DNA from: Syntrophaceae bacterium
GTDB lineage: Bacteria; Desulfobacterota; Syntrophia; Syntrophales; UBA2192
Assembly: GCA_013177795.1 (NCBI GenBank)
Contig: JABLXY010000003.1
Coordinates: forward strand, 701,578-765,577
Reading direction: 5' to 3'
Length of the DNA: 64,000 nucleotides
Shown: in pieces, positions 45,548 to 64,000 of the stretch
How the letters are laid out: each line of letters opens with the position of its first letter
Position numbering within the stretch: the stretch's first letter is position 1
Translations under genes and position numbers: made by a program
Notes under the pieces: generated by a model
What the model was told of the DNA's origin: nothing
Databases searched by the model: none
The model's input: only the letters and a program-made list of their open reading frames with translations

Positions 45548-45549
45548 TC

Positions 45550-49194: not shown

Positions 49195-49276
49195 CGACCG
49201 GTCGAATATTGAAAAAGGTCAATCGAAACGGCCATATGGGCAACAAAATTGCAAGAATGGATACCTGACGGTGGGG

Positions 49277-50467: not shown

Positions 50468-50478
50468 GAGCGCTGAAC

Positions 50479-50874: not shown

Positions 50875-50888
50875 GGTTTTGCCGATCA
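50861..50888 (+). promoter_or_regulatory. Sigma-28 promoter TAAAGACG-N12-GCCGATCA
   Basis: Close to the TAAAGTTT-N11-GCCGATAA consensus. It overlaps the flgJ stop and lies 32 nt upstream of the flgM ATG. Confidence 0.7.
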
Positions 50889-50919
50889 GTGTGTTAAGAT
50901 TCCCGCAGAGGTGTACGAA

Positions 50920-51237
50920 ATGAAGATTTCCAAAGTCGACGACGCCACCCTCCAGATGATCCAGCACTACCAGAAGGCCGACAAGGTCGAGGACCGTGCG
51001 CAGGAGAAACCGGAGAAGGCCGGCGCCGCCAATCTCGTACCCGAGGAAAAGGTGAATCTTTCCACCACGGCAAAGGACGTGCAGAGCCTGAAGAATGCCG
51101 TCTCGAGCCTGCCCGACGTCAGGGAGGACAGGGTCCAGAACCTGCGGGAGCAGATCGAGAAGGGCACCTACAAGGTCGACGCGGAGAAGGTTGCCGAGAA
51201 GATGGTGGGAGAGTCGCTGCTCGATGTCCTTTCCTGA
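50920..51237 (+). CDS. flgM: Anti-sigma-28 factor FlgM
   Basis: C-terminal VREDRVQNLREQIEKGTYKVDAEKVAEKMV is typical FlgM; preceded by a sigma-28 promoter. Confidence 0.88.
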   Translation: MKISKVDDATLQMIQHYQKADKVEDRAQEKPEKAGAANLVPEEKVNLSTTAKDVQSLKNAVSSLPDVREDRVQNLREQIEKGTYKVDAEKVAEKMVGESLLDVLS

Positions 51238-51407
51238 GCGAATCGGACTGATTCCCCCCGTTACAACTCAAGGGCTCCAGACCCGTCCGTATCCCGAAAC
51301 CGTCCGCAGAACGTAAGGAAGGGCGGGGCGCCGGAAACGGCCCCCGCCGGATTCCCGCAAAGCCGGCCCGCCCGACGGCCGGCCATGCCACGCAGGACAG
51401 GTGCGCC

Positions 51408-51959
51408 ATGCTGAACCCGAATCTGCAGATGACCCACGAACCGGAGGGGAGGGCCGACCTGGAGACCCTCCTGGGCTCCCTGCTGTCCGTTCTCCGCAAG
51501 GAGGTCGAGGTCTACGGCGAACTCGCCGAGGCCGTCGCCCTCGAGGCGGACATCCTCCGGAGGCCCTCCCTGGAGAGCCTCCACGAGAGCAATGCCCGCA
51601 AGGAGACCTGCATCCTCAAGTCCCGGCTCCTGGAGGAGGTCCGGTTGAAAACGGTCGGCCGGATCGCGTCGGCCCTGGGGCTCGACGAAGAGGGGCTGAC
51701 GCTCCAGGCGATCCTGCCCCACGCGCAGGGCGGCCTGGGGCGGGACCTCCGGGACTGCCACCGGGAACTGCGCGCACTGGCCGCCCGGATCCGGGAAGCG
51801 AACCGCCGCAACGGGCGCCTGCTGGATGCGTCGCTCGAGGGGGTCCGCGCCGGCACCGAGTTCCTCGGCAGCCTCCTCGGCGGGGGCGCGACGTACCTCG
51901 ACTCGGGTGCCTTGAAACAAAGCGGCCTGAGCGGCCGCATCTGCTCGGAGAGAGGGTGA
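51408..51959 (+). CDS. flgN: FlgN-family export chaperone for hook-associated proteins
   Basis: LETLLGSLLSVLRKEVEVYGELAEAVALEADIL..., a helical protein located between flgM and flgK. Confidence 0.7.
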   Translation: MLNPNLQMTHEPEGRADLETLLGSLLSVLRKEVEVYGELAEAVALEADILRRPSLESLHESNARKETCILKSRLLEEVRLKTVGRIASALGLDEEGLTLQAILPHAQGGLGRDLRDCHRELRALAARIREANRRNGRLLDASLEGVRAGTEFLGSLLGGGATYLDSGALKQSGLSGRICSERG

Positions 51960-51963
51960 CCCC

Positions 51964-53343
51964 ATGTCCGGCATCTACCAGATCCTCAACACGGCGAAGG
52001 AAGGCCTCCTGGCGGCCCAGGTCGGCATGGCGGTGACGGGCGCCAACGTCACCAACGCCCACACGCCCGGTTACGTCCGGCAGCGGGCCGTCATGGCGGC
52101 GACCAGCCCCGGCGCAGCGGCCGGCAGCGACATCCAGACCGGCGTGGAGGTCACGACGATCGAGCGGCTCTACAACCGCTTCATCGAGCTCCAGATGGTC
52201 GAGCAGTCCTCCCAGGTCGGAGAGGCCTCGATCCGCAAGGAGACCCTGGACCGCATCGAGACGATCTTCAACGAGACCGACGGCGGGGGCCTCAACGAGC
52301 TGATGAACCGGTTCTGGAGCGCCTGGGAAGACCTCTCGGCCAACCCCGCGGGGCAGGTGGAGCGGACGGCCCTGGCCAACGCCGCGGACAGCCTGGCCGG
52401 GATGTTCCGGGAGTACGCCGGCGAATTGTACAGTATCCGGGCCGACTGCAACACGCAGGTGGCCGCGGCGGTCGGCGAGCTCAACGGGTACCTCGCCGAC
52501 ATCGCCTCCCTGAACGGGAAGATCATCGAGGGCCTGAGCGGCGGCGTGAACGTCAACAACCTCCTGGACCAGCGCTCGGCGCTGCTCAAGAAAGCGGCCG
52601 GGCTCATCGATATCCAGTACGTGGAGGAGGCGGGCGGGGCCGTCAACGTCCTGACCTCCGACGGCCGGTCCCTCGTCCAGGGGATCGCCTCGTGGCAGCT
52701 GGGCGTCCAGGTCCGGAGCGACGGCTACTACGACGTCGTCTATGCCGACAACCCGGCGGCCCCCATCAACGGCACCATCGGCGGCGGGAAGCTGGCGGGG
52801 CTCATCGGCATGCGGGACACGGCCGCGAAGGGTTACCAGGACGCGCTCGACAGCCTGGCCGGTGCGATGGTCGACGCCGTCAACACCCTGCACGCCTCCG
52901 GCTTCGACGGTTACCGCAACGCGGGGGGGACCTTCTTCGATCCCCTCGGCGCCACGGGGGCGCGCGACATGCGGGTGTCGGCCGCCGTCCTGGGCGACCC
53001 GAACCGGATCGCCGCGTCGGCGACCGTGCAAGCCGATGGGGACAACGCCCGGGCGATCGCCGGCATCCGGGACTCCATCCTCATGGGCGGCGTGGCCACC
53101 CTGGGGGAATTCTACGCCTCGCTGGTGGGGCAGATCGGCCGCGACGCGACAGAAGCCGCCCGGCGGGAGGCGCACGAGACGGGCGTGATGACCCAGATGG
53201 AGAACGCCTGGGAGCAGACCTCGGGCGTTTCCATCGACGAGGAGATGATGAGCCTCATCAAGTATCAAATGAGCTATCAGGCGGCGGCCCGTCTTGCCAA
53301 GGCCGCGGACGAGATCCTCCAGTCGCTCCTGGAGATGACGTAA
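51964..53343 (+). CDS. flgK: Flagellar hook-associated protein 1 FlgK
   Basis: GLLAAQVGMAVTGANVTNAHTPGY; C-terminal VSIDEEMMSLIKYQMSYQAAARLAKAADEILQSLLEM. Confidence 0.93.
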   Translation: MSGIYQILNTAKEGLLAAQVGMAVTGANVTNAHTPGYVRQRAVMAATSPGAAAGSDIQTGVEVTTIERLYNRFIELQMVEQSSQVGEASIRKETLDRIETIFNETDGGGLNELMNRFWSAWEDLSANPAGQVERTALANAADSLAGMFREYAGELYSIRADCNTQVAAAVGELNGYLADIASLNGKIIEGLSGGVNVNNLLDQRSALLKKAAGLIDIQYVEEAGGAVNVLTSDGRSLVQGIASWQLGVQVRSDGYYDVVYADNPAAPINGTIGGGKLAGLIGMRDTAAKGYQDALDSLAGAMVDAVNTLHASGFDGYRNAGGTFFDPLGATGARDMRVSAAVLGDPNRIAASATVQADGDNARAIAGIRDSILMGGVATLGEFYASLVGQIGRDATEAARREAHETGVMTQMENAWEQTSGVSIDEEMMSLIKYQMSYQAAARLAKAADEILQSLLEMT

Positions 53344-53370
53344 GGGGCGGCGGGGCAGAGAGGTTTGGGT

Positions 53371-54876
53371 ATGCGAATCACGGAGACCCTGCGTTACGAG
53401 TCGCTCATCGCCAGCCTGGGGCGGGCACAGGGCAACTACAGCTCCCTCATGGAGCAGATGGCGTCGCAGAAGAAGATCAACCGGCCCTCGGACGACCCCG
53501 TGGGGGCGACGCGCGTGCTCGATTTCCGGGGCGTGCGCGACGCCATTGCCCAGTACGGGCGCAACATCGAAAACGCCGACGCGTGGCTGCAGCTGAGCGA
53601 GACGAAGCTCGAGAACATCAGCGACCTCATCGGCAAGGCCCGCGAGGCGGGCATCAACGACCAGTCTTCGCAGACCCGCCAGGTCCTCGCCCAGAACGTG
53701 GGGTCGCTCATCGAGGAGATCCTCTCGCTGGCCAATTCGAAGTTCGGAGACCGCTGGCTCTTCGCGGGGTCGCGGACGGACCGGGCCCCCTTCGAGCGGA
53801 TCATCCTGCCCGTGGCCCACTCGGCCAACGGCTTCGACGGCTCCGTCTTCTCCGGCGGGACCTACACGGGGACGGCGGACAAGACCTACACCGTGCGGAT
53901 CGCCTCCGGCGGGGCGCCGGGCACGGCGACCTACGAGGTGTCCGAGGACGGCGGGGCAACGTGGGGCGCCGCGGCCGCCGTGCCTGCATCGGGGATCGTG
54001 AGCCTCGGCGGCGGCCTGACGGTCCGGTTCGGCGACGACGGCACGACGGACCTCACGGCGGGCGACCTCTTCACCGTGAACGCCTACGCGGGCGGCCGGA
54101 CCACGGACGCCCGCGTGGAAGCGCCGCAAGCAGCGGCGAACAACGCCTTCGCGGGCACCGTGGCGCTCGACGCGTCGAGCGGCACCTACGGCGGGCAGAG
54201 CAACCGCACCTACGTCGTGCAGTTCGTCAACGGCGGCGGCGCCGTCGGGGAGGCCGATTACCGCATCTCCACGGACGGCGGGAAGACCTGGGGCGCTGTG
54301 CAGACGGCCCCCTGGGGCGACACGATCACCGTGGACGATTCGGCGGGGCACGAGCAGGTGCTGCGGTTCACGGCCGCGGGGCCGGCCGACGGGTTTGCGG
54401 AAAACGACCTGTTCTACGTCAACGTCTACGCCCCGGGCGTCTACAGCGGCAACGGAGAGGACCTCTCCGTCGCCACGGGCCGCGGCAGCCGCATGGTCTA
54501 CAACGTCACCGGGGAGGAGGCCTTCACGGACCGGGGCCGGGGCACCGTGGACCTCTTCGCCGCGCTGGAGTCCCTGAAGACGGCTCTCGAGCAGGGGGAC
54601 CGCGCGGGCGTCATCGCCCAGGTCGACCGCCTCACCACGGCCCAGGACACGATCCGGCAGTACGTCGCCGAGAGCGGGGCCCGGCGCAGCAGCCTCCAGA
54701 TTTCCAAGCAGAATTACCAGGTCCTCGACGACAAGATCGCGGGACTCGTGTCCGCGACGGAGGGTGTCGACCTCGAACGGCTCATCGTCGAGTTCAAGAT
54801 GAAGGAGACCGCCCTGCAGGCCTCCTACGCGATGTCGGTCCAGATCGGCAGGATGTCGATCCTGCAGTATCTGTAG
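53371..54876 (+). CDS. flgL: Flagellar hook-associated protein 3 FlgL with a large central insertion
   Basis: MRITETLRYESL...KKINRPSDDPVGA N motif; flagellin-like C-terminus VDLERLIVEFKMKETALQASYAMSVQIGRMSILQYL. At about 500 aa it exceeds typical FlgL proteins of about 300 aa. Confidence 0.88.
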   Translation: MRITETLRYESLIASLGRAQGNYSSLMEQMASQKKINRPSDDPVGATRVLDFRGVRDAIAQYGRNIENADAWLQLSETKLENISDLIGKAREAGINDQSSQTRQVLAQNVGSLIEEILSLANSKFGDRWLFAGSRTDRAPFERIILPVAHSANGFDGSVFSGGTYTGTADKTYTVRIASGGAPGTATYEVSEDGGATWGAAAAVPASGIVSLGGGLTVRFGDDGTTDLTAGDLFTVNAYAGGRTTDARVEAPQAAANNAFAGTVALDASSGTYGGQSNRTYVVQFVNGGGAVGEADYRISTDGGKTWGAVQTAPWGDTITVDDSAGHEQVLRFTAAGPADGFAENDLFYVNVYAPGVYSGNGEDLSVATGRGSRMVYNVTGEEAFTDRGRGTVDLFAALESLKTALEQGDRAGVIAQVDRLTTAQDTIRQYVAESGARRSSLQISKQNYQVLDDKIAGLVSATEGVDLERLIVEFKMKETALQASYAMSVQIGRMSILQYL

Positions 54877-54885
54877 GGATAGCGC

Positions 54886-54913
54886 TCAAGTTTTCCGGGA
54901 AAGGGTCCGATAG
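54886..54913 (+). promoter_or_regulatory. Sigma-28 promoter TCAAGTTT-N12-TCCGATAG
   Basis: Read directly, about 160 nt upstream of the flagellin ATG, implying a 5' UTR of roughly 150 nt. Confidence 0.6.
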
Positions 54914-55071
54914 GTACCGGTGAAAGGGCTTTGAAATCCGGAAAGGAGGTTAAGCGACAGCGCGGCGAGAGCCGCATGCCGGGCATGCAGCCCAAATCAC
55001 GGAACCCGACGCTCTTTCGGACCCGCCGGCAAGAATGCCGGCCACAACATCCAGAAAAGGAGACTTGATTC

Positions 55072-55893
55072 ATGGCTATCAATGACATCTCTTTGACCTC
55101 CGGAATGCGGAACAACCTCGTCAGCCTGCAGGGCACCGTCGAGCTTCTCAACCGCACCCAGGAACGTCTCGCCACCGGCAAGCGGGTGAACAGCCCCCTG
55201 GACAACGCGACCAACTACTTCGTGGCCAAGTCCCACATGGACCGCGCCACGGACCTCAGCGTCCGCAAGGACGGCATGAGCGAGGCCATCCAGACGGTCA
55301 AGGCGGCCAACGCGGGCATCCAGGCCATCACGGACCTGATCGCGAGCGCCAAGGGTATCGCCCAGTCGGCCCTCTCGGCGGGGACGGCGGAGCGCTCCGT
55401 TCTGGCGGCCCAGTACGACCAGATCCGGACACAGATCGACCAGCTTGCCGAGGACTCCGGCTACAAGGGCACGAACCTCCTGGATTCGGGCGATCTCACG
55501 GTCCAGTTCAACGAGGACGGCACCAACTCGCTGACCATCTCCGGCTTCGACGCCTCGACGGCCAGCCTCGGGATCGATGCCGCCGTCGGCAACTGGGCGG
55601 ACGTCAACGACATCAGCGGCACGGGCGGCGCCATCGCGGATCTCGACGCGGCGCTCAACACGCTGCGGGCACAGGCCAAGAACCTGTCGTCGAACCTCAA
55701 CATCATCACGACGCGAAGCTCGTTCACGCAGGGGATGATCAACGTCCTCACGGAGGGCGCCACCAACCTCACGGCGGCCGACACGAACGAGGAGGGAGCC
55801 AACATGCTCATGCTCCAGGTCCGGCAGTCCCTGGGCACGACGGCCCTCAGCCTCTCGGCCCAGGCGGCGCAGTCGGTCCTGAGGTTGTTTTAG
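55072..55893 (+). CDS. fliC: Flagellin (short, D0/D1-only type)
   Basis: 273 aa. ISLTSGMRNNLVSLQGTVELLNRTQERLATGKRVNSPLDNATNYF; C-terminal EEGANMLMLQVRQSLGTTALSLSAQAAQSVLRLF. AAAAGGAGA RBS. Confidence 0.92.
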   Translation: MAINDISLTSGMRNNLVSLQGTVELLNRTQERLATGKRVNSPLDNATNYFVAKSHMDRATDLSVRKDGMSEAIQTVKAANAGIQAITDLIASAKGIAQSALSAGTAERSVLAAQYDQIRTQIDQLAEDSGYKGTNLLDSGDLTVQFNEDGTNSLTISGFDASTASLGIDAAVGNWADVNDISGTGGAIADLDAALNTLRAQAKNLSSNLNIITTRSSFTQGMINVLTEGATNLTAADTNEEGANMLMLQVRQSLGTTALSLSAQAAQSVLRLF

Positions 55894-55970
55894 CAACGGG
55901 GACCTGAGCGGGAGCGCCTATCTCCCCTCGGATCAGGCCCCCATGCAAGACCAGACTCTCGCATAGGCCC

Positions 55971-56005
55971 GGCACGAGGAGGGGCCCCGCGCCCCTCCCC
56001 GTGCC
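55971..56005 (+). other. Strong GC hairpin GGCACGAGGAGGGGC-cccgc-GCCCCTCCCCGTGCC
   Basis: 15-bp stem with one mismatch and no U-tract. It lies 8 nt upstream of the AGGAGG RBS of the flagellin-like gene. Confidence 0.6.
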
Positions 56006-56026
56006 TGCCGTGCAGGAGGTCGTGTT

Positions 56027-56899
56027 ATGGACGGAATCAAAGCAGCCACAGACCGGGCGCTGATCGCCGCCGAGCATGCGAGATCGTCGATGGACGCGGC
56101 GACGAAGCGGATCGCGACGGGCCGGAAGATCAACGCCGCCGCGGACGACCCGGCCCGGTGGGCGTCGACGCAGAAGGCGCGGTCGGTCGACGGGCACCTG
56201 CAGGCCGTCAACGCCGGCCTCGAGACCGTCGCAATCGGCATCCGCGGCGCCGACCAGGCCATGGCCGCCATCGAGGAGCACCTCGACCAGATGATCGAGA
56301 TGGTCAAGCTCTTTCCGCCATACCCGGAGGGGGACAACGCGGAGGAGCGGATCCGGATGCTGCGGAGCTTCAACGGGATCCGGAGGCTCATCGACCAGCT
56401 GACGGTCCCGCCGAGGGACGACCTGGGGCAGGCGATCATGTCCGACCCCGCCGCGAACGACGTGCCCGACTCCTGGCCGGTCATCGTCAACGAGCAGGGC
56501 GACGTCAAGACGATTCGGAGGCAGGAGGTCCACACGGGGCCCACGGGTCTCAACATCCCCGAGCTCACCGAGGCGGACCTGACCGAAGACGGGCGGGCAG
56601 GCGGACCCCTGAGCCGGCAGAAGCTCGACGGCATCGCGGCCAATCTCGAAAACGCCAAGGCGATCCTGCGGCAGCGCAGGGCCGCCCTCGGCAGCGACGC
56701 GGCCGCCATCGCCCGGGCGAAGACGTCCAACGCGGAGGCTGCGAACTTCCACAAGGCCTACGCGGAAAAGCTGGAGAGCGCCGACATCAACGAGACGGCC
56801 GCGCAGGTAACGAGCATCCAACTCAAGCAGTCCCTGGCCCTCGAGTCGCTGGGAAGCATCACGTCCATGCGCTCGGAGCTGGTCGCGCTGCTGAAGTGA
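56027..56899 (+). CDS. Divergent flagellin-family protein with a non-canonical central region
   Basis: N-terminal KRIATGRKINAAADDPARWAST...LQAVNAGLETV (flagellin N motif); C-terminal LESADINETAAQVTSIQLKQSLALESLGSITSMRSELVALLK (flagellin C motif). The middle roughly 110 aa is unlike known flagellin domains. Confidence 0.6.
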   Translation: MDGIKAATDRALIAAEHARSSMDAATKRIATGRKINAAADDPARWASTQKARSVDGHLQAVNAGLETVAIGIRGADQAMAAIEEHLDQMIEMVKLFPPYPEGDNAEERIRMLRSFNGIRRLIDQLTVPPRDDLGQAIMSDPAANDVPDSWPVIVNEQGDVKTIRRQEVHTGPTGLNIPELTEADLTEDGRAGGPLSRQKLDGIAANLENAKAILRQRRAALGSDAAAIARAKTSNAEAANFHKAYAEKLESADINETAAQVTSIQLKQSLALESLGSITSMRSELVALLK

Positions 56900-56903
56900 T
56901 CCC

Positions 56904-57320
56904 ATGGCCCTGAGAATCGAGCTGAAACCGCGCGAGCGGTTCATCCTGGGGGGAGCCGTCATCCAGAACGGCGATAGCCGCTCGGAGTGGATCCTGGAGA
57001 ACAACGTCCCGATTCTCCGCGGGAAAAACATCATGAGCCTCGAGAAGGCCGACACCCCGTGCAAGCGGGTCTACTTCCTGATCCAGCTCATGTACGTGGA
57101 GGGGGGCAATCTCGAGGGGCACCAGGAAACATACTGGACCCTGGTCCGCGACATCGTCCGGGCGGCGCCCAGCCTGCTCGATCTCGTCGACGCCATCAAC
57201 GAACACATCGTGGGGGGCCGATACTACGAGGCCCTCAAGCTGACGCGGAAACTCATCACCGAAGAGGAGAGGTTGATTCAACATGCAAACGCAGGTACAG
57301 GCCTACCGGAACACCCATAA
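56904..57320 (+). CDS. flbT: Flagellin translation regulator FlbT
   Basis: MALRIELKPRERFILGGAVIQNGDSRSEWILENNVPILRGKNIM...TPCKRVYFLIQLMY matches the FlbT family pattern (MxLKLxLKPGEKxxINGAVxxNGD). Confidence 0.85.
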   Translation: MALRIELKPRERFILGGAVIQNGDSRSEWILENNVPILRGKNIMSLEKADTPCKRVYFLIQLMYVEGGNLEGHQETYWTLVRDIVRAAPSLLDLVDAINEHIVGGRYYEALKLTRKLITEEERLIQHANAGTGLPEHP

Positions 57321-57672
57321 GATGGTCATGTCGGACCGGGAAGTGGAGGCAGCGGTCCTCACGAAGGCGGCCCTCATGCTCCGCGACTGCCAGGAGAACT
57401 GGACCCGCGGCGGCAGCAACGGCATGCTCGACGAGGCGCTGCGCTACAACCAGCTCGTCTGGAGCATCTTCCAGGCGGAGATCACCCGGAAGGACCACCC
57501 GATGCCCGTGGACCTGCGGCAGAAGATCCTGACACTCAGCCGCTTCATCGACCGGCGCATCTTCGAGGTCATGGCCTACCCGAATGCGGGCAAGCTCGAC
57601 GCCATCATCAACATCAACCTCAACCTCGCCGCCGGGCTGAGAGGGTCTCCCGAAGGGGATCTGGAGGACTGA
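57283..57672 (+). CDS. flaF: Flagellar biosynthesis regulator FlaF
   Basis: QAYRNT...SDREVEAAVLTKAALML...EALRYNQLVWSIFQAEI...PMPVDLRQKILTLSRFI matches the FlaF family pattern. It overlaps flbT by 38 nt; the alternative ATG at 57322 would remove the overlap. Confidence 0.8.
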   Translation: MQTQVQAYRNTHKMVMSDREVEAAVLTKAALMLRDCQENWTRGGSNGMLDEALRYNQLVWSIFQAEITRKDHPMPVDLRQKILTLSRFIDRRIFEVMAYPNAGKLDAIININLNLAAGLRGSPEGDLED

Positions 57673-57700
57673 CCGCCGCGGGCGGAAAGACGGAACCAAA

Positions 57701-57741
57701 GGGGGGCGGGCCGATGGACATATCGGACCGCCCCCTTCGTT
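57701..57741. terminator. Bidirectional terminator hairpin GGGGGGCGGGCCGAT-ggacat-ATCGGACCGCCCCC flanked by AAA / TTCGTTT
   Basis: 14/15-bp stem in the 126-nt spacer between the convergent flaF and giant glycosyltransferase genes. Confidence 0.7.
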
Positions 57742-57798
57742 TGACCGTGATTTGCCTGAGACGGATCCGCCGTGACTCCCGTGCGCGGGGGATGCCCG

Positions 57799-60700
57799 TC
57801 ACGGCCGGAGCGGCTCGCCCCGTCTGTCGGAGGCCGATGCCGTCTGCAGCGGCGGGATGTCGGCCCCCAGGGCCGACATGATCTGACCGACCTCTTCCGG
57901 CGAGCCTTCGAGCCCGCGGCATTTCAGCGCGTCCGCCCACAGCCTGCGGGCTTCCGCAAGAAGCGCTTCGGCGTCATGGCCGCGGCCGGCCTCCCGCAGG
58001 CGTGCGGCGTAGACCTGGAAAAAGGCGGCAGGGTTGAGTTCCCGGCCCGACAGCGCACGGATCCCCTCCTCGGCCTCGGCGCGCCGGCCCGCGAGCAGGC
58101 AGGCGGCGCAGAGGAGAGCCGCTGCGGGCGGGTAGTCGCCCGTTGTGGAAAGGAGGCTTTCGAGTCTCTCGGCTGCCTTTTCCGGGCATCCTTGGTAAAA
58201 TTCGGCCATGGCCAGGTTCAGGGCAGCCTCCTTCAGCCCGGGGTCAATGGCCAGCGCCTTGCGGGAGGCGTCGATCGCCCTGCCGTACTGCCCGGTTTCG
58301 AGGTAGGCGTGCCCAAGGTTCAGGAATGCCAGGGGCAGGTCATCCCGGCAGCCGAGCGAAAGATACCGCTGCCACAACTCGATGGCCTCCGCAAACCGCC
58401 GAAGCCTCCCTGCCTGGACGGCCAGCTCGTAGACCGCCCGGGGATTCCCGTCTGTCGCCTCGAGTTTCTGCCGTCCCAGCCGGTAGTAGAACTCGCCCTT
58501 GCTCCTGCCGGCAAGCGGCCCGTAGTGATGGACCGGGACGTCGCAGGCGGCCCAGCGAAGGCCGTGGCGTTCCATGGCAGGCTCGACCATCTCGTGGACG
58601 GCCCCCTCGTAGCGGATGCGGGGGTCGTTGCGGAAGAGCCGGACCTTCCTGCTCGGGAACCACCCGGGCCCTGCCTCCTCGGAAGGATACAGGCCGTCGT
58701 TGCCCGTCCATCCCTCGGCATTCATCTCGGTCGAATAGTTCCTTGTGGGGAGGACAAACCCGGCTGCGTCCTCGGGTGCCGTCGCGGCGAGCCGGACCAG
58801 CCGCTCCGCATCCGCCGGTGCGAGGGCCTCATCGGCATCGAGGATGAAGATCCAGTCCCCCGTCGCCCTGGAGAGCGAGAAGTTCCTCGCCGCCGCGAAG
58901 TCGTCGCACCAGGGGAAATCGAATACGTTTGCGCCCGAAGCAAGGGCGATCTCCCGGGTCCGGTCTTTCGACCCCGTGTCCACGACGATCATCTCGGAGA
59001 CGGCCGCCCGGACGCTCGAAAGGGCCCGGCCGATCGATGCCTCCTCGTCGCGGGCGATCATGCAGAGGCTGATGGCCGGGCGCTCCGCGAAACCCTCGCT
59101 CGGCGGGTCAGCCGCCGGGTGTGAGGCCCCGCCGCGCGCAAGAGATGCCGCAGCCTCGGGGCGTCCCGCCTGTCTCAGTTTCGTCGCATACGACTGCAGG
59201 AAGGATGTGTCCGTGAAACCGGCTTGGCGCAGTGCGGCCAGAGGAACGCTTGCCTTTTCCCTCTCCCCTCGGACAAGGTAGGCAGCGGCCAGCAAGGCGC
59301 TGGCGGGGGGATAGTTCTCGACCCGCTCGAGCAGCCTCTCCAGGATCGAGATCGTCTGTGTCACGTCGCCGGCGTAGAACTCCGCCATGGCGCAGTTGAG
59401 ACAGGCCTCCTTCATGCCCGGGTCGAGAGCCACGGCCTTTCTTGCGCTGTCGAGCGCCTCGCGATACCTGCCGGCCTCCAGATGGAGGTGAGCAAGGTTC
59501 ATGTGTGCCTGGGCGCTGTCCGGCTCGAGGGAAACGACACGGGACCAGAGTGCGAAGGCCTCCTCGCGGTCTCCGAGTTCCATCGCCTGTATGGCCAGCT
59601 CGCGGACACTCCGGGCGTCGGATCCGTTGTCCTCGAGTTTCTTCTTGCCCAGGTCGAAGTAATTTTTCCCTTTTTCAAGGGTCTTCCCGGGGTCGAGCTT
59701 CCCGTAGTGATGCACGGGGACGGCGAGCGCCTCGGGCTTCAGCCCGATTCTCTTTAGCGAGGGTTCCACGATCTCGTGGACGCGGTTTTCGAAGCGGATC
59801 CGCTTGTCCCGGCTGAAGAGCCTCACCTTGCCGCTCGGGAACCAGCCGCTTCCGGCCTCTTCGGCATACTGCCCGTCGTTGGCCTGCCAGCCTCTCTGCT
59901 GGGGGATGTCGAGGTAGTTTCGGGTCACCATCGTGAAGGCGCGGGGCTTCCCAGGCGCCTTGGCCGTAAATTTCCTGAAGACCGGGTAATCGCGCGGCGA
60001 GAGGACCTCGTCGGCGTCGAGAACGAGGACCCAGTCCCCCGTCGCCTTCGAAAGCGAGAAGTTCCTCGCCTCGGCGAAGTCCTCGGTCCAGGCAAAATCG
60101 TACACCTGTGCGCCGAGAGCCCGGCTGAGCTCCCGCGTGCGGTCCGTCGAGCCCGTGTCGACGACGATGATCTCGTCCACCACGGGCTTGGCGCTCAGGA
60201 GACAGCGGGCGATGTGCTTCTCCTCGTTCTTCACGATCATGCACAGCGACACCCGTGCCTTTTTCTTCGAAGCATCCCTCATCCCGGCGTGCGGGCCGAC
60301 CCGGTCCCTCACGTGCAACGCCGACGCGAGGAACGCGTCGTCGATGTCGAAGAGCGTCAAGGCGTGCTCGATCTCCCCCATCGCCTCCTCGTGCCTGCCG
60401 AGGCCGATGAGCAGGTCGATGAGCATGAGCCGCAGGTGGCGGCAGTCGGGATAAAGGGCCCTCGCCTCGCGGAAGAGGTCCGCTGCGCTCTCCTGCCTTC
60501 CGAGGGACGCCGCCGCGGCGTGGTAGCGTTCCGCACAGTCCGGCACGTGGGGCGAGAGGATAAAGCCCCTCTCCAGGAGTCCATAGGCGTCTTCCTGGTT
60601 TCCGGATGCCCATTGCAGCACCCCGAGGTTCGTGAGCGGCTCGCCCCATGCGGGGTCGCAGGCGGCCGCCCTGCGGAAGTGCGTTTCCGCCCCCTGGCGG

Positions 60701-62883
60701 TCTCCCCTCTTGTAGGCGAGCACGCCCTTGAGGTTGACCGCACGGGCGTTGCCCTCATCGAGGGCAAGCGCCTCGTCGGCGAGTCTTTCCGCCTCGGCGT
60801 CCTCGTTGAGACCCTCGCGGCAGTATCCCGTAAGGACAAGGTGCATCCTGCGGTTTGCCTTGTCCGGGACCGCTTCGAGAATGTCGAGGGCTTCCCGGTG
60901 GTGCTTCGCCTCGATGAGGGTCTCTGCCAGTTCGCCGTAGATCTCCCACGCACCCGGCGCTTCCCTCATGGCCTCGACGTATCCGGCGACCGCAGCCCGC
61001 AGGTCACCCCGCTGATAACGTTCCCGGGCTTTTTCACGGATGTTTCGCGATTGCAGAAATCTTCCCTCGGCGCTCTCGCGGCCGGCGGCGTTCCATTTGC
61101 GCCGAAAGATTTTTCGGTTGCCTGCCAGGGAAGACCCGCAGTCGATCCGGTTCCCGATGAAGCTGCGGCTCCCGAAGTGATGGACGAAGACATCCCCGGC
61201 GATGTAATTCCGGTATCCTGCCATGAGCGCGCGCAGGCAGAAATCGTCATCCTCGAAATTGCCGGTCCCGAAGCTCTCGTCGAGAAGACCGATCCTGTCC
61301 ACAAGCGCCTTCCGGAAGAGCATGCAGAAGCCGACGACCCGCCCCGACTCGATGCGGCGATGCCGGTGTCTGTCGCGGAACAGCCGGGCGAACCCGTCCA
61401 GGCCCTCCAGCGACGCATACCCGACGGACTCCATCTTCTGCCGGCCGCTGATTGCGTTCGTCAGGGGGCCCACGATGCCCGCGCCGGGCGCGCCTTTCAG
61501 GCAGTCAAGCATCCCGGAGAGCCACCCTTCGGTCACGACGGTGTCGTTGTTGAGAAGGAGGATGAACTCGCCCGCGGCGGCCTCGATCCCCTGGTTGCAG
61601 CCCTTCGCGAAGCCGAGGTTCGAGCCGTTTTCGATCAGCCGATAGTGCCCGTTCTCCCCGACGAGCTTCCGCAGCCACTGGACCGTCCCGTCCGTGGAGC
61701 CGTTGTCGACGAAGATGATCTCATGCGGCTCCGGCGTGTGCCTGCGGACGCTCTCGACGCAGCGCCTCGTGTACTCGAGTTCGTTGAAGGTGAGGATGAC
61801 GATTGAGACGAGGCCGGCTGAGGCCCCCCGCTTTGCCGCCGATGCATCCGACAAGGCCTGCTTTGTGGCCTCCAGATAGGCCCTGCCGAATCGGAGGTCG
61901 GGTTCGAGATGATTCCCTTCCCCCCATTCGTTCCAGGCATTGATGAAGACGATGTTCTCGTCCAAGTCGTACCGGTCGATCTTCCTGATCACGGAAGCAA
62001 GCCAATGTCGATAGTGCTCCGGAGAGGACTGGTCGAGGATCACGGATGCCGTTGCCCTGCGCGGCGAGTTATCCCAGCTGGGTGTCACACAGGGGAAGCG
62101 CTTGTAGGGTGGGATGGGTTTCTTCAGCATCCGCTCGACGACCGCAGGGTAATCGAAGACGAGGTGATCCTTCGGCAACCGCTTCACAGGCGGACCGAGG
62201 TTCCCCCAGTCCGGCTGGAATTCGATACTGGCATCGAAACCGATCAAGCGCGGATCGCCGTACTCGTACGGGGCGCTTTCAACCTTGCAGAGATAGAGTT
62301 CCTCGCCCTGCCGCCTGGCCTCCTCTCGCCATACTTCCGCCGTCCGGGCCGCGTTGGGCAATCTCGTCGAGAGGTACACGATCATCAAGGGCTTGTTCCG
62401 AATCCGGATATACCTCCTGTCCCGAAACACGCGCAGGAGCCAACGGATGTGTCGCCGGTCATCCTCCTCGCTGAACGTCTGCTCCATGAGGATTTCCCCC
62501 TGGCGGCCGTCCCACGCGCGCGTCCAGTGCTCATTCGCCCAGCACAGGCAGAACGGGAAATCAGGCTTGCGGGATGCGAGCACCTCGTCCAGGGGGCGGT
62601 TCAGCAGGCGCCTGCCGTTGAACCAGTAGTGGTAGTAGCAGAACCCGTCAATGCCGTACTCTCTGGCCAGATCCGCCTGCGCTTGTCGCGTTTCCCCGAC
62701 GCGGAGATCGCAGAACCCCAGGTCTGCGGGGATGTGCGGCTGATAGTGTCCGGGGAACAGCGGATTGGCCTGCACGACGTTCGTCCACTCCGTGAACCCT
62801 TTGCCCCACCAGCGGTCGTTCTCCGGGATGGGATGGTATTGCGGAAGATAAAGCGCAATCAGGCGCACGTCCGGATGGCTCAC
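57799..62883 (-). CDS. Giant multidomain glycosyltransferase: WbsX-like domain + GT2 + TPR + (GT2 + TPR) x2
   Basis: 1,694 aa, GTG start. aa 1-345: LIALYLPQYHPIPENDRWWGKGFTEWTNV (WbsX-type). aa 357-575: VSIVILTFNE...FVDNGSTDGT...LLNNDT (GT2). aa 877 onward: VSLCMIVKNEE...VVDTGSTDRT...LDADE. aa 1269 onward: ISLCMIARDEE...VVDTGSKDRT...LDADE. Each GT2 is followed by TPR-like repeats. Confidence 0.85.
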   Translation of the reverse strand: MSHPDVRLIALYLPQYHPIPENDRWWGKGFTEWTNVVQANPLFPGHYQPHIPADLGFCDLRVGETRQAQADLAREYGIDGFCYYHYWFNGRRLLNRPLDEVLASRKPDFPFCLCWANEHWTRAWDGRQGEILMEQTFSEEDDRRHIRWLLRVFRDRRYIRIRNKPLMIVYLSTRLPNAARTAEVWREEARRQGEELYLCKVESAPYEYGDPRLIGFDASIEFQPDWGNLGPPVKRLPKDHLVFDYPAVVERMLKKPIPPYKRFPCVTPSWDNSPRRATASVILDQSSPEHYRHWLASVIRKIDRYDLDENIVFINAWNEWGEGNHLEPDLRFGRAYLEATKQALSDASAAKRGASAGLVSIVILTFNELEYTRRCVESVRRHTPEPHEIIFVDNGSTDGTVQWLRKLVGENGHYRLIENGSNLGFAKGCNQGIEAAAGEFILLLNNDTVVTEGWLSGMLDCLKGAPGAGIVGPLTNAISGRQKMESVGYASLEGLDGFARLFRDRHRHRRIESGRVVGFCMLFRKALVDRIGLLDESFGTGNFEDDDFCLRALMAGYRNYIAGDVFVHHFGSRSFIGNRIDCGSSLAGNRKIFRRKWNAAGRESAEGRFLQSRNIREKARERYQRGDLRAAVAGYVEAMREAPGAWEIYGELAETLIEAKHHREALDILEAVPDKANRRMHLVLTGYCREGLNEDAEAERLADEALALDEGNARAVNLKGVLAYKRGDRQGAETHFRRAAACDPAWGEPLTNLGVLQWASGNQEDAYGLLERGFILSPHVPDCAERYHAAAASLGRQESAADLFREARALYPDCRHLRLMLIDLLIGLGRHEEAMGEIEHALTLFDIDDAFLASALHVRDRVGPHAGMRDASKKKARVSLCMIVKNEEKHIARCLLSAKPVVDEIIVVDTGSTDRTRELSRALGAQVYDFAWTEDFAEARNFSLSKATGDWVLVLDADEVLSPRDYPVFRKFTAKAPGKPRAFTMVTRNYLDIPQQRGWQANDGQYAEEAGSGWFPSGKVRLFSRDKRIRFENRVHEIVEPSLKRIGLKPEALAVPVHHYGKLDPGKTLEKGKNYFDLGKKKLEDNGSDARSVRELAIQAMELGDREEAFALWSRVVSLEPDSAQAHMNLAHLHLEAGRYREALDSARKAVALDPGMKEACLNCAMAEFYAGDVTQTISILERLLERVENYPPASALLAAAYLVRGEREKASVPLAALRQAGFTDTSFLQSYATKLRQAGRPEAAASLARGGASHPAADPPSEGFAERPAISLCMIARDEEASIGRALSSVRAAVSEMIVVDTGSKDRTREIALASGANVFDFPWCDDFAAARNFSLSRATGDWIFILDADEALAPADAERLVRLAATAPEDAAGFVLPTRNYSTEMNAEGWTGNDGLYPSEEAGPGWFPSRKVRLFRNDPRIRYEGAVHEMVEPAMERHGLRWAACDVPVHHYGPLAGRSKGEFYYRLGRQKLEATDGNPRAVYELAVQAGRLRRFAEAIELWQRYLSLGCRDDLPLAFLNLGHAYLETGQYGRAIDASRKALAIDPGLKEAALNLAMAEFYQGCPEKAAERLESLLSTTGDYPPAAALLCAACLLAGRRAEAEEGIRALSGRELNPAAFFQVYAARLREAGRGHDAEALLAEARRLWADALKCRGLEGSPEEVGQIMSALGADIPPLQTASASDRRGEPLRP

Positions 62884-64000
62884 CGTGAACTGTCCTCCGT
62901 ATTTCGCAGAATTTCAAGGTTCTCCCAGGCGTTCCGGTTGCCCGGCGCAACAGCGAGAACTTTGTGGTAGAAGATCTGTGCCTCGGCGGAGCGGCCGGCC
63001 AACGCGCAGATGTTGCCGAGAATCAGGAGCGATTCGACATCATGGGGCCGTGCCTTGAGAAGATCGAGATAGATCTGGATTGCATCATCCGCCCGGCCCA
63101 TCTCCGAAAAGTAGAATCCCGCCAGATTTTTCCGGAATGCGTCGTTTTCCGGTTGAAGGCTTACTGCGCGCTCGTAACACAGACCGGCTTTTTCCTTGTC
63201 CTGGAGGCTGTGGTGCAGGACCCCCAGATCCCCATAGAGAACCGCTTTCTCAGGATGTGCTTCGAGCAGTTTCTCGTATCGGGCGATCGCCTTTTCGGGG
63301 GGTTCATGCCCGATCATGTTTCGCGCTTGCGCGTACGCCTGCTCGAAACCACCCACCCGTCCGCGTCGATTGTAAAGCTCGTCCAGCATCGCCACGGCGG
63401 AATCGAAAATCGTCTCCGGCTTCGGGAAATTGTCGCAGGAAGGCTTTCCGTTCTTCGGGCAACGATTGAATCCGAAACAGCCGGGACAGTCCATGTCCTC
63501 GATGAGATAGCGGTAATGGTCCGACACGGGCGCGTCCGAGTTAACCGGCTTGGTGTTTCCAAAGAGGCAGATCGCAGGCGATCCCATGATGTGCGCCGCA
63601 TAGTGGACGGGGAACGAGTCCATCCCGATCAGCAGGTGATGCGAGGAAAGCAGTTCCCGGAAGTGCTTCAGGTTGCTGTACGGCACGGTCTTTACGTTCT
63701 TGCCGCCGTGCGGTCGGGAGCTCAGAAGCGTGATCTGATACCCTTTACGGCGGAATTTCTCGATCAGCACCTTCAGGTGGGTCTCCGGGTAGGTCTTCAG
63801 CGGCCAGCCACCCTCCGTGTGCAGCAGGATGCGAAAGGCGCTTCCCGTCCTGTCCGGGAGATACCGGCTTGCGATGGGTCGGCTGCACAGCAGATCGCCT
63901 TTCGATTGAAGGCTCGCGCCGAGAGCGAAATAGTAGTGGTCGATCAGGTGAAAATCGGAGATTCGGTATTCCCGGGAGGGCCGGCAATAGTAGTAAAAGT
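62880..64000 (-). CDS. GT9 (heptosyltransferase-like) glycosyltransferase fused to C-terminal TPR repeats; 5' end lies beyond the window
   Basis: The frame stays open to the window edge (...ILLHTEGGWPLKTYPETHLKVLIEKF...). The GT9-like motif LLIGMDSFPVHYAAHIMGSPAICLFG is followed by TPR-like repeats. The TGA overlaps the GTG of the downstream giant gene (GTGA). Confidence 0.75.
   Translation of the reverse strand, partial: FYYYCRPSREYRISDFHLIDHYYFALGASLQSKGDLLCSRPIASRYLPDRTGSAFRILLHTEGGWPLKTYPETHLKVLIEKFRRKGYQITLLSSRPHGGKNVKTVPYSNLKHFRELLSSHHLLIGMDSFPVHYAAHIMGSPAICLFGNTKPVNSDAPVSDHYRYLIEDMDCPGCFGFNRCPKNGKPSCDNFPKPETIFDSAVAMLDELYNRRGRVGGFEQAYAQARNMIGHEPPEKAIARYEKLLEAHPEKAVLYGDLGVLHHSLQDKEKAGLCYERAVSLQPENDAFRKNLAGFYFSEMGRADDAIQIYLDLLKARPHDVESLLILGNICALAGRSAEAQIFYHKVLAVAPGNRNAWENLEILRNTEDSSR

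What the first reader, a model, noticed from the sequence alone, without database searches (positions are those of the whole stretch)
57799..64000. Giant 1,694-aa WbsX-GT2-TPR-(GT2-TPR)x2 enzyme coupled to a GT9-TPR enzyme, convergent on the flagellin locus: candidate processive flagellin glycosylation machinery
Two minus-strand genes overlap by GTGA, indicating translational coupling. Together they encode five predicted glycosyltransferase-type catalytic domains (GT9, WbsX-like, three GT2 with DxD-type LDADE motifs) and four TPR blocks. TPR plus glycosyltransferase is the architecture of flagellin-modifying enzymes such as Caulobacter FlmG, where the TPRs bind flagellin and the GT domain transfers the sugar. 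The genes end 126 nt from flaF, separated only by a bidirectional terminator. The adjacent flagellin is a short D0/D1-only type with an exposed Ser/Thr-rich middle (TNSLTISGFDASTASLG...DISGTGG). Fusing several GT-TPR modules in one polypeptide suggests assembly of a multi-sugar glycan directly on the substrate. I do not know of a characterised example of this architecture.
Basis: inference. Interest (0 to 1): 0.68.

Follow-up and report, generated by a model that had tools for sequence, protein, structure and literature searches.

The report
Giant multi-enzyme flagellin glycosylation protein
A 1,694-residue soluble protein fuses several sugar-handling enzyme domains, each with its own protein-binding repeat domain, and sits beside the flagellin genes; it is most likely a fused form of a known kind of enzyme that attaches sugars to the flagellar filament protein, and thousands of uncharacterised relatives exist in environmental bacteria.

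Summary
A 1,694-aa minus-strand ORF (57799-62883) overlaps the stop of an upstream GT9-TPR ORF by GTGA, and ends 126 nt from flaF at the end of a 40-kb flagellar cluster.

Three details need correcting. Only two GT2 domains carry LDADE. The "WbsX" domain is predicted to be a GH99-like TIM barrel, not a nucleotide-sugar transferase fold. The flagellin middle is not notably Ser/Thr-rich.

The two C-terminal modules are 51% identical. Their catalytic cores match the glycosyltransferase domain of Listeria GmaR, the known flagellin O-GlcNAc transferase with a GT2+TPR layout (E 1.6e-27). The whole module is predicted to fold like the peptide glycosyltransferases SunS and ThuS.

Relatives carrying this module as their C-terminal end are convergent on flaF-flbT-flagellin in 5 of 5 annotated contigs and 15 of 19 informative genome loci. 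Sugar-nucleotide genes lie upstream in four of those five contigs.

The flagellin-glycosylation reading is therefore well supported by comparison, though nothing here is biochemical. "Processive" is unsupported. FlmG is an analogue; GmaR is the nearest characterised relative.

The architecture is not unique: the module family has about 16,500 cluster representatives, in proteins up to 4,437 aa. Verdict: new variant of a known kind, moderately interesting.

The parts
57799..62883 (-). Giant multi-domain gene, 1,694 aa, GTG start. It has no predicted membrane helix, so the product is taken to be soluble and cytoplasmic.
   Evidence: GC3 0.82; maximum Kyte-Doolittle 19-residue window 1.42; colinear homologs
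61864..62862 (-). WbsX-family domain (residues 8-340). It is predicted to be a GH99/GH71-like (beta/alpha)8 barrel. The closest relative lacks this domain and has a different N-terminus.
   Evidence: PF14307, 449 bits; AF2 pTM 0.84; Foldseek top hits 4ad0/4acz GH99, E 3e-8
61159..61806 (-). Module 1 GT2 domain (residues 360-575). It is a generic non-processive GT2 type with LLLNNDT and EDDD motifs and no QxxRW.
   Evidence: only 24% identical to module 2
60304..61056 (-). Module 1 TPR block (about residues 610-860). It was found together with the module 1 GT2 in 118 to 120 of 120 top homologs.
59704..60252 (-). Module 2 GT-A domain (about residues 878-1060), GmaR/SunS type, with LDADE at residue 955.
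   Evidence: (GmaR 22ao, E 1.6e-27)
59125..59691 (-). Module 2 TPR domain (about residues 1065-1253), ten helices in the predicted model.
58525..59073 (-). Module 3 GT-A domain (about residues 1271-1453), a paralog of module 2, with LDADE at residue 1348.
   Evidence: (51% identity over 374 aa)
57946..58512 (-). Module 3 TPR domain (about residues 1458-1646), followed by a 48-residue tail (57802-57945).
62880..64000 (-). Upstream GT9-TPR gene, truncated by the window end. The GT9 C-terminal part lies at about 63474-63824 and the TPRs at about 62913-63341. Its TGA stop overlaps the giant gene's GTG start. GC here is about 0.57-0.58, against about 0.66 for the window.
57697..57743 (.). GC-rich hairpin in the 126-nt convergent gap between flaF and the giant gene. 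It probably acts as a terminator for both transcription units, but its U-tracts are weak.
   Evidence: z -3.85; not called by the consensus scan
57283..57672 (+). flaF. FlaF is the flagellin secretion chaperone in Caulobacter.
   Evidence: PF07309, 98.6 bits; PMC7591256
56904..57320 (+). flbT, a flagellin translational regulator.
   Evidence: PF07378, 140.8 bits
56027..56899 (+). Flagellin-like 290-aa ORF with only a weak Flagellin_N match. It could be a second substrate or a regulatory flagellin.
55072..55893 (+). Flagellin, 273 aa, essentially D0/D1 only. This is the presumed acceptor substrate.

Best explanation
The two overlapping minus-strand genes most likely encode a cytoplasmic, lipid-carrier-independent flagellin O-glycosylation system in which several enzymes of the pathway are fused into one polypeptide.

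Shown here:
- Modules 2 and 3 of the giant protein are paralogous GT-A+TPR units. Their catalytic cores are homologous to the GT domain of Listeria GmaR (flagellin O-GlcNAc transferase). The predicted fold of the whole module matches the peptide glycosyltransferases SunS and ThuS.
- This module forms the C-terminal end of a very large family of giant proteins.
- Those proteins are encoded convergently next to flaF-flbT-flagellin in many lineages.
- The protein has no membrane helix and no processive-synthase motif.

Inferred:
- The TPR domain of each module docks unfolded or chaperone-free flagellin. The flagellin-like paralog may be docked too.
- The GmaR-like GT-A domains transfer the first sugar from a nucleotide sugar onto Ser/Thr in the exposed middle of flagellin, before FlaF-dependent export. 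The long-maintained duplication of modules 2 and 3 suggests they differ in site, donor or flagellin specificity.
- Module 1 (generic GT2+TPR), the GH99-like WbsX domain and the translationally coupled GT9-TPR enzyme then extend or remodel the glycan on the protein.
- The N-terminal accessory domains and the upstream gene are exchangeable cassettes that diversify the glycan between close relatives.
For: - Domain calls.
- Modules 2 and 3 are 51% identical over 374 aa.
- GmaR GT domain (PDB 22ao) matches at E 1.6e-27 over 86 aligned residues that include the DADE motif, and the downstream HE and HYG motifs also line up. GmaR's function and GT+TPR layout are described in PMC9638930.
- The AF2 model of module 2 has pLDDT 88.5. 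Its top Foldseek hits are ThuS and SunS over 380-394 columns, E about 1e-15.
- In 107 of 108 top homologs that hold a full module, it ends within 80 residues of the C-terminus.
- Gene neighbourhood: P0003, P0004, P0009, P0024 and P0106 are all convergent on FlaF/FlbT/flagellin. Four of the five (all but P0024) have DegT, epimerase, FdtA, NTP-transferase, methyltransferase or radical-SAM genes upstream.
- In the GTDB representative genomes, 15 of 19 informative close loci have FlaF, FlbT or a flagellin-family ORF just downstream. 21 of 56 distant loci (29-43% identity, many phyla) have a flagellin-family ORF within 10 kb. My own estimate of the chance expectation for a 20-kb window is about 1%.
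- Fusion evidence: GT9, WbsX, GT4, methyltransferase and radical-SAM domains are fused into homologous giants elsewhere.
- The window itself is a contiguous flagellar cluster from about 17.7 to 57.7 kb.
- Cassette exchange: the closest relative is 71.5% identical over residues 359-1694, has a different N-terminus and a different upstream gene, and the break falls at a domain boundary. GC drops over the variable part.
- In the field, TPR next to a GT domain is already used as the marker of a flagellin glycosyltransferase, and TPR-flagellin binding has been shown for FlmG and Maf-1.
Against: - There is no biochemical or mass-spectrometry evidence that this flagellin is glycosylated.
- No nucleotide-sugar genes are visible in this window, which ends inside the GT9-TPR gene.
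- Four of 19 informative close loci (L012, L020, L024, L027) and most distant loci lack flagellar neighbours. The module also occurs in archaea that have no bacterial flagellin, so the module type is not exclusively flagellin-directed.
- The nearest homologs of the GT9 part sit in glycan clusters with no flagellar genes within 10 kb.
- The flagellin middle is not Ser/Thr-enriched.
- The division of labour among the domains, and TPR-flagellin binding in this protein, are inference only.
- The activity of the WbsX/GH99-like domain is unknown.
Confidence: 0.72

Rival explanations
1. The genes make a cell-surface polysaccharide (LPS O-antigen or core, EPS, capsule) and merely happen to abut the flagellar cluster.
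For: - GT9 is the LPS heptosyltransferase family, and WbsX was named from an O-antigen cluster.
- One source labels a homolog "O-antigen biosynthesis protein".
- The closest homologs of the GT9 part lie in generic glycan clusters with GT4, WbsX and an STT3/PMT_2-type membrane enzyme, with no flagellar genes within 10 kb.
Against: - The convergent arrangement with flaF-flbT-flagellin is conserved across many lineages.
- No Wzx, Wzy, ABC exporter, initiating phosphotransferase or membrane segment was seen in the window or in the relatives' loci.
- The catalytic cores are closest to protein- and peptide-directed GTs (GmaR, SunS), not to polysaccharide GTs.
- Each GT carries its own TPR domain.
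Confidence: 0.07
2. The GmaR/SunS-like modules glycosylate a different protein or peptide, such as a glycocin-type ribosomal peptide, a pilin, an S-layer protein, or other flagellar proteins such as the hook-associated proteins, rather than the filament flagellin.
For: - The best structural matches are the glycocin S-glycosyltransferases SunS and ThuS, and the protein gives a sub-threshold NCBIfam SunS hit.
- The module occurs in archaea and in many bacterial loci without flagellin.
- TPR-linked GTs that modify pilins are known (PMC9306852, listed).
Against: - No glycocin precursor, transporter or pilin gene lies next to the locus. The neighbours are flagellin, flbT and flaF.
- The TIGR04195 score is 102.7 against a cut-off of 350.
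- Sequence similarity to GmaR (E 1.6e-27) is much stronger than to SunS (E 1.8e-11).
- Synteny is specifically with flagellin genes.
Confidence: 0.08
3. The protein is mainly a regulator or chaperone-like factor. Like GmaR, it could use its helical repeat domains to control flagellar gene expression or flagellin handling by competing with FlaF/FlbT, with glycosyl transfer secondary or lost.
For: - GmaR is bifunctional: a GT and an anti-repressor.
- The gene sits directly beside the post-transcriptional flagellin regulators flbT and flaF.
Against: - The DxD (D91, D93), E94, H171/E172 and H193/H194 positions are invariant across 19 module sequences, which argues for retained catalysis.
- No similarity to GmaR's linker or anti-repressor region was detected.
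- The fused and neighbouring sugar-modifying enzymes in relatives make sense only if glycans are made.
Confidence: 0.05

Closest known systems
Listeria monocytogenes GmaR (bifunctional flagellin O-GlcNAc transferase and MogR anti-repressor)
   Same: - The GT-A (GT2) catalytic core is sequence-homologous, with E 1.6e-27, and the DADE motif and downstream HE and HYG motifs are aligned.
- The GT domain is followed directly by a TPR domain.
- GmaR's substrate is flagellin. That gmaR lies among flagellar genes and that its flagellin is short (287 aa) are from my own knowledge.
- The enzyme is cytoplasmic and soluble.
   Different: - GmaR has a single module of 637 aa, plus a linker and an anti-repressor domain that were not detected here.
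- Here two GmaR-like modules are fused in tandem behind a generic GT2-TPR module and a GH99-like domain, and are coupled to a GT9-TPR gene.
- The organism is Gram-negative-type with FlaF/FlbT control and no MogR.
SunS / ThuS glycocin S-(O-)glycosyltransferases (PDB 7msn, 7msk)
   Same: They are the best whole-module structural match: a GT-A domain followed by a helical TPR-like domain, in enzymes that glycosylate a peptide directly from a nucleotide sugar. The DxD region is sequence-similar.
   Different: - The NCBIfam SunS model is far below its cut-off, 102.7 against 350.
- The substrates of SunS and ThuS are small antimicrobial peptides encoded next to the enzyme. No such genes are present here.
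Caulobacter FlmG class of flagellin glycosyltransferases
   Same: The logic is the same: a TPR domain binds flagellin and a linked GT domain modifies it in the cytoplasm before FlaF-dependent export. The FlaF/FlbT flagellin control system is also shared.
   Different: - FlmG has an N-terminal TPR followed by a C-terminal GT-B domain that transfers pseudaminic or legionaminic acid.
- Here the GT-A domains precede the TPRs.
- No homology to FlmG was shown. It is an analogue, not a relative.
Maf-1 type flagellin glycosyltransferases (MAF_flag10/DUF115 + C-terminal TPR)
   Same: The catalytic domain is followed by a C-terminal TPR that binds flagellin and sets site specificity. Paralogous enzymes with different site preference exist.
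   Different: No MAF_flag10 domain is detected in the giant protein. Maf enzymes transfer nonulosonic acids.
Predicted GT2+TPR flagellin glycosyltransferases in Clostridium flagellin glycosylation islands
   Same: The same criterion is used to call a flagellin glycosyltransferase: a GT2 domain plus TPR repeats, encoded inside the flagellin locus alongside sugar-nucleotide genes and accessory GT2 enzymes (PMC13317340).
   Different: Those are separate, ordinary-sized genes. Here the priming and accessory enzymes are fused into one 1,694-aa protein, and into proteins of up to 4,437 aa in relatives.

Membership tests
GmaR-type flagellin O-glycosyltransferase (GT2 + TPR) | GT-A/GT2 catalytic domain homologous to the GmaR GT domain, with a DxD motif | tested here: met
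   PDB 22ao (GmaR) matches at E 1.6e-27. Module 2 residues 5-90 align with GmaR 10-95, including DADE. Module 3 is 51% identical to module 2.
GmaR-type flagellin O-glycosyltransferase (GT2 + TPR) | TPR domain immediately C-terminal to the GT domain | tested here: met
   Pfam TPR hits. The AF2 model has a GT-A domain at residues 13-195 and ten TPR-type helices at 200-388.
GmaR-type flagellin O-glycosyltransferase (GT2 + TPR) | Linker plus anti-repressor domain that binds MogR | tested here: not met
   A search with the module 3 TPR plus tail found no GmaR chain among the best 60 PDB hits, which reach E 0.033. The modules are about 400 aa against 637 aa for GmaR.
GmaR-type flagellin O-glycosyltransferase (GT2 + TPR) | Transfers a sugar to Ser/Thr of flagellin | not testable with these tools
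   Only indirect support: conserved synteny with flagellin genes.
FlmG class | N-terminal flagellin-binding TPR followed by a C-terminal GT-B domain | tested here: not met
   The order here is GT-A then TPR in all three modules. The FlmG layout is as described.
Maf (MAF_flag10 / DUF115) | MAF_flag10 catalytic domain | tested here: not met
   No such Pfam hit among the 25 families listed (of 28 that matched) for the giant protein, nor among the 16 for the upstream ORF.
SunS/ThuS glycocin glycosyltransferases | GT-A plus C-terminal helical substrate-binding domain (fold) | tested here: met
   Foldseek top hits are 7msk and 7msn, E about 1e-15, 380-394 aligned columns.
SunS/ThuS glycocin glycosyltransferases | Reaches the curated family score (TIGR04195) | tested here: not met
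   102.7 bits against a cut-off of 350.
SunS/ThuS glycocin glycosyltransferases | Adjacent glycocin precursor and export genes | tested here: not met
   The neighbours within the window are flagellar genes and the GT9-TPR gene. The sequence beyond 64000 is unseen.
Pfam Glyco_tran_WbsX (PF14307) | Reaches the Pfam gathering score | tested here: met
   449.3 bits against 25.1, full-length match to profile positions 1-350.
Pfam Glyco_tran_WbsX (PF14307) | Nucleotide-sugar glycosyltransferase activity or fold | tested here: not met
   The predicted fold is a GH99/GH71-like (beta/alpha)8 barrel. There is no PDB sequence homolog. Activity cannot be tested here.
GT9 (heptosyltransferase-like, GT-B) | Pfam PF01075 match | tested here: inconclusive
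   40.1 bits against a cut-off of 22, but only profile positions 112-237 of 247 are visible. The N-terminal half lies beyond the window end.
Processive membrane GT2 synthases (BcsA/PgaC-like) | Transmembrane helices and a QxxRW motif | tested here: not met
   The maximum hydropathy in a 19-residue window is 1.42, and there is no Q..RW motif.

The most novel reading that the evidence does not exclude
The giant GT-TPR proteins could be single-polypeptide "glycan assembly lines" for flagellin. In this reading, a conserved C-terminal GmaR/SunS-like priming module holds the flagellin through its TPR. A variable train of N-terminal domains, many with TPR domains nearby, then builds and tailors a multi-sugar O-glycan directly on the bound protein, with substrate hand-off between modules. 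Those domains include GT2, GT4, GT9, GH99-like, methyltransferase and radical-SAM types. New glycans would arise by swapping domains at domain boundaries, a logic resembling modular synthases and so far undescribed for protein glycosylation.
Probability: 0.2. Interest if true: 0.75.

Novelty: new variant of a known kind. Interest (0 to 1): 0.5.

Why it matters
Flagellin glycosylation affects filament assembly, motility and immune or phage recognition. How soluble enzymes build multi-sugar glycans on flagellin, and how they choose sites, is still poorly understood outside a few pathogens.

These fused proteins act as a natural "Rosetta stone". They physically link a GmaR-type flagellin-directed transferase to the accessory enzymes that presumably elaborate the glycan. 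They also show that this fused form is abundant in uncultured Desulfobacterota, Nitrospirota, Syntrophales and other lineages. About 16,500 cluster representatives carry the module, in proteins up to 4,437 aa.

They offer compact, self-contained systems for reconstituting on-protein glycan assembly and for glyco-engineering. The domain-boundary cassette exchange between close relatives gives a handle on how surface glycan diversity evolves.

Tried and rejected
- Exact-sequence look-up of the giant protein found nothing. The look-up of FlaF found one metagenome contig that is 100% identical to the window but stops 70 bp inside the giant gene. The region beyond 64000, and any sugar-nucleotide genes there, therefore could not be seen.
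- The GTDB scan did not contain the source genome; the best module match was 53%.
- The first self-BLAST returned only the identity hit. Explicit module-against-module BLAST was needed.
- The consensus terminator scan found no site in the gap. Only the fold calculation shows the hairpin.
- The PDB sequence search with the WbsX domain found nothing meaningful, and a literature search for "WbsX" returned only unrelated filarial-antigen papers.
- Literature searches for glycosylated flagellin in Desulfovibrio, and for flbT/flaF together with glycosyltransferase and TPR, found no description of these giant enzymes.
- The contexts of the closest homologs of the GT9 part showed generic glycan clusters without flagellar genes. 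They do not add support for a flagellar role of that gene on its own.
- I considered and rejected a processive synthase (no TM helix, no QxxRW) and membership of the FlmG or Maf families (the defining domains are absent).
- Taxonomic placement of the window was not resolved. The closest assembly is labelled only "Pseudomonadota bacterium". The alternative-haem genes at 185-4206 and the relatives hint at a Desulfobacterota-like anaerobe, but this is a guess.

Full report
**What is there**

The minus strand carries a 1,694-codon ORF at 57799-62883 with a GTG start. It has coding-type GC3 of 0.82. Its start overlaps the TGA stop of an upstream minus-strand ORF by GTGA, and a GGAGG lies about 10 nt upstream. 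The upstream ORF runs off the window at 64000. Its 372 visible residues hold the C-terminal part of a GT9 (heptosyltransferase-like) domain followed by TPRs.

Pfam places four kinds of domain on the giant protein:
- a full-length WbsX-family domain at residues 8-340 (449 bits);
- a GT2 domain at 360-575;
- two further GT2 stretches starting near residues 878 and 1277;
- three TPR blocks.

There is no hydrophobic segment; the maximum 19-residue hydropathy is 1.42. There is also no QxxRW motif. This is therefore a soluble enzyme, not a processive membrane synthase.

On the plus strand the window is one long flagellar cluster from about 17.7 kb to 57.7 kb. It runs flgB/C-like, fliE, F, G, H, I, J, fliK, flgD, E, fliL, M, P, R, flhB, A, F, G, flgF, G, A, H, I, M, N, K, L. 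It ends with a 273-aa flagellin, a 290-aa flagellin-like ORF, flbT and flaF. flaF stops at 57672, 126 nt from the giant gene's stop.

The gap holds a strong GC hairpin (z -3.85 against shuffles). The simple terminator scan does not call it, because its U-tracts are short.

- LDADE occurs twice, at residues 955 and 1348, not three times. The first GT2 has LLLNNDT.
- The WbsX domain has no sequence relative in the PDB. It is predicted (AF2, pTM 0.84) to be a (beta/alpha)8 barrel. Its best structural matches are GH99 endo-alpha-mannosidases and GH71 enzymes. It should not be counted as a nucleotide-sugar glycosyltransferase fold, and its activity is unknown.
- The flagellin middle is not notably richer in Ser/Thr than the rest of the protein.

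**Anatomy of the giant protein**

Modules 2 (residues 866-1265) and 3 (1266-1694) are 51% identical over 374 residues. They are tandem copies of one GT-A+TPR unit. Module 1 is only distantly related, at 24%.

The catalytic core of modules 2 and 3 matches the glycosyltransferase domain of Listeria GmaR (PDB 22ao). The match has E 1.6e-27 over 86 aligned residues that include the DADE motif, and the downstream HE and HYG motifs also line up. The next best matches are the peptide S-glycosyltransferases SunS and ThuS.

GmaR is the flagellin O-GlcNAc transferase of Listeria. It is built as a GT domain, a TPR domain, a linker and an anti-repressor domain. Its authors propose that the TPR recognises flagellin (PMC9638930).

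An AF2 model of module 2 (pLDDT 88.5) shows a GT-A domain followed by ten TPR-type helices. The best whole-module structural matches are ThuS and SunS, with E about 1e-15 over 380-394 columns. Modules 2 and 3 therefore belong to the GT-A enzymes that glycosylate proteins or peptides directly from a nucleotide sugar.

No similarity to GmaR's linker or anti-repressor part was found.

**Relatives**

The protein database holds thousands of giant GT2-TPR proteins. They come mostly from metagenome-assembled Syntrophales, Geobacteraceae, Thermodesulfovibrionales and Nitrospinales. In the genome scan they also come from Desulfobacterales, Nitrospirae and others.
- Of the 116 top hits that matched module 2, 108 hold a full module-2-like unit. 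In 107 of these the unit ends within 80 residues of the C-terminus, and 13 have it duplicated.
- The module 1 GT2 and its TPR block are also present in essentially all of them.
- The N-terminal part varies. It can hold WbsX (sometimes twice), GT4, GT9, methyltransferases or radical-SAM/SPASM domains.
- A profile of the module finds 16,557 50%-identity cluster representatives at E <= 1e-30. The best-scoring ones are 686 to 4,437 aa long.

The architecture is therefore not unique. I found no paper in the held library that describes it.

**Gene neighbourhood**

Five giant homologs have informative, Pfam-annotated contigs: P0003, P0004, P0009, P0024 and P0106 (44-72% identical). In all five the gene is convergent on FlaF, then (FlbT), then a small or flagellin-like ORF, then flagellin. 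In four of the five, all but P0024, the upstream genes are sugar-nucleotide and tailoring enzymes. These include DegT aminotransferases, epimerases/dehydratases, FdtA, a GHMP kinase plus NTP-transferase, methyltransferases, ATP-grasp and radical-SAM enzymes. No Wzx, Wzy or exporter genes appear.

I also scanned one genome per GTDB species with the module alignment, and searched the 80 returned loci with my own iterated HMMs for flagellar proteins.
- Among the 24 close loci (>= 39% identity), 19 have at least 2.6 kb of sequence downstream.
- Fifteen of those 19 have FlaF, FlbT or a flagellin-family ORF just downstream. All are convergent except L029, where the flagellin ORF is co-directional.
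- The module-bearing ORFs in those loci are 680 to 2,987 aa long.
- The exceptions are L012, L020, L024 and L027.
- Among 56 more distant loci (29-43% identity), 21 have a flagellin-family ORF within 10 kb. These include Latescibacterota, Caldithrix, Planctomycetota, Brocadia, Cohnella, Brevibacillus and others.
- The archaeal loci have none.

For a 20-kb window, chance co-occurrence should be of the order of 1%. That figure is my estimate, not a measured control.

**Cassette exchange**

The closest relative is L001 (assembly GCA_030057925.1). Its flagellin, flagellin-like, FlbT and FlaF proteins are 82-92% identical to those of the window, and its DNA is about 81-85% identical from the flagellin gene into module 2 of the giant gene.

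Its giant protein aligns at 71.5% only from residue 359 onward. That point is the WbsX/module 1 boundary. In place of WbsX it has 740 residues containing GT2 and GT4 domains. In place of GT9-TPR, its upstream gene is a 1,262-aa radical-SAM/SPASM-methyltransferase-TPR protein.

In the window, GC falls from about 0.68 over modules 3 and 2 to about 0.60 over WbsX and 0.57-0.58 over GT9-TPR. A metagenome contig identical to window 48161-57868 breaks off 70 bp into the giant gene. Taken together, this is the pattern of a variable glycosylation island attached to a conserved core.

**Most likely mechanism**

Shown:
- homology of modules 2 and 3 to GmaR, and a SunS-like predicted fold;
- a soluble protein;
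- conserved synteny with flagellin, FlbT and FlaF;
- fusion and swapping of accessory domains.

Inferred:
- The TPRs dock newly made flagellin in the cytoplasm.
- The GmaR-like GT-A domains put the first sugar on Ser/Thr of the exposed middle of the short, D0/D1-only flagellin, before FlaF-dependent export. In Caulobacter, FlaF is the flagellin secretion chaperone and FlbT works with a regulatory flagellin (PMC7591256).
- The two paralogous modules are old duplicates. Each is closer to its counterpart in L001 than to the other. They probably differ in site, donor or flagellin preference, as the Maf-1 and Maf-2 paralogs do.
- Module 1, the GH99-like domain and the translationally coupled GT9-TPR enzyme extend or remodel the glycan.

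Nothing here supports processivity.

**Rivals**

- A surface polysaccharide pathway is disfavoured by the synteny, the absence of export or polymerase genes, and the protein-directed GT type.
- A non-flagellin protein or peptide substrate is possible in principle, since the module also occurs away from flagellin and in archaea. Nothing at this locus points to one.
- A mainly regulatory role like GmaR's second function is not excluded as an add-on. The invariant catalytic residues argue that transfer activity is retained.

**Comparison with known systems**

The locus works like the GT+TPR flagellin glycosyltransferases: GmaR, FlmG, Maf-1, and the GT2+TPR enzymes predicted in Clostridium flagellin islands.
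- By descent it is related to GmaR and SunS. It lacks GmaR's anti-repressor part and falls below the SunS family cut-off.
- It is not an FlmG (the TPR-then-GT-B order is absent) and not a Maf (no MAF_flag10 domain).

What is new is the fusion. One or two GmaR-type modules form the constant C-terminal end of a multi-enzyme polypeptide whose N-terminal domains vary.

**Verdict**

This is a new variant of a known kind, of moderate interest. The experiments that would settle it are mass spectrometry of the filament and reconstitution of modules 2 and 3 with flagellin.

Noticed in passing
window 56027-56899 (+): A 290-aa flagellin-like ORF, with only a weak Flagellin_N match, sits between the flagellin gene and flbT. 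The same slot is filled by a 290-, 240-, 245-, 224- or 71-aa ORF in relatives L001, L002, L004, L090 and L091. It may be a regulatory flagellin that partners FlbT, like Caulobacter FljJ, or a second glycosylation substrate.
   Followed up: partly
window 61600-64000: GC drops to 0.57-0.62 over the WbsX domain and the GT9-TPR gene, against about 0.66 for the window and 0.68 over modules 2 and 3. The drop coincides with the point (residue 359) where homology to the closest relative stops. This suggests a recently exchanged cassette.
   Followed up: partly
L086 (metagenome run SRR6186653) = window 48161-57868: A public metagenome contig is 100% identical to this part of the window and ends 70 bp inside the 3' end of the giant gene. 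This places the organism in that sample, and suggests that assemblies break at the repetitive or variable GT locus.
   Followed up: partly
window 185-4206 (+): This stretch holds two radical-SAM/SPASM genes, hemB (ALAD) and a NirDL-like siroheme-decarboxylase regulator/subunit gene. The set resembles the alternative haem biosynthesis pathway of anaerobes such as sulfate reducers. polA follows at 4384-7089.
   Followed up: no
window 26371-27876, 44356-45501, 45538-45864, 30217-30996, 41471-42121 (+): Several flagellar components are duplicated or split. There are two FliK-like (Flg_hook) ORFs, a stand-alone ORF matching only the FlhB C-terminal domain, and two FliL paralogs.
   Followed up: no
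window 10622-17431 (+) and 8444-10012 (-): Upstream of the flagellar genes lie two sigma-54 activator response regulators with a PAS histidine kinase between them, a 760-aa SPOR+TPR protein, and a response-regulator-GAF-HD protein. An RR-GAF-HD gene also lies next to the flagellin locus in relatives L002 and L004.
   Followed up: no
L035, L036, L038-L040, L043, L052, L061 (archaeal MAG loci): The GmaR/SunS-like GT2+TPR module (31-40% identical) also occurs in Woesearchaeota, Nanoarchaeota and Micrarchaeia contigs, where no bacterial flagellin genes were found. The module must have other protein or peptide substrates there.
   Followed up: no
L004 1593-5531; L002 1930-4868; L091 221-7885: The sugar pathways upstream of the giant homologs differ from locus to locus. 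L004 has a GHMP kinase plus NTP-transferase (a heptose-like activation route), L002 has FdtA, DegT and an acetyltransferase, and L091 has GFO/IDH, DegT, methyltransferases and ATP-grasp enzymes. This implies very different flagellin glycans among relatives.
   Followed up: no
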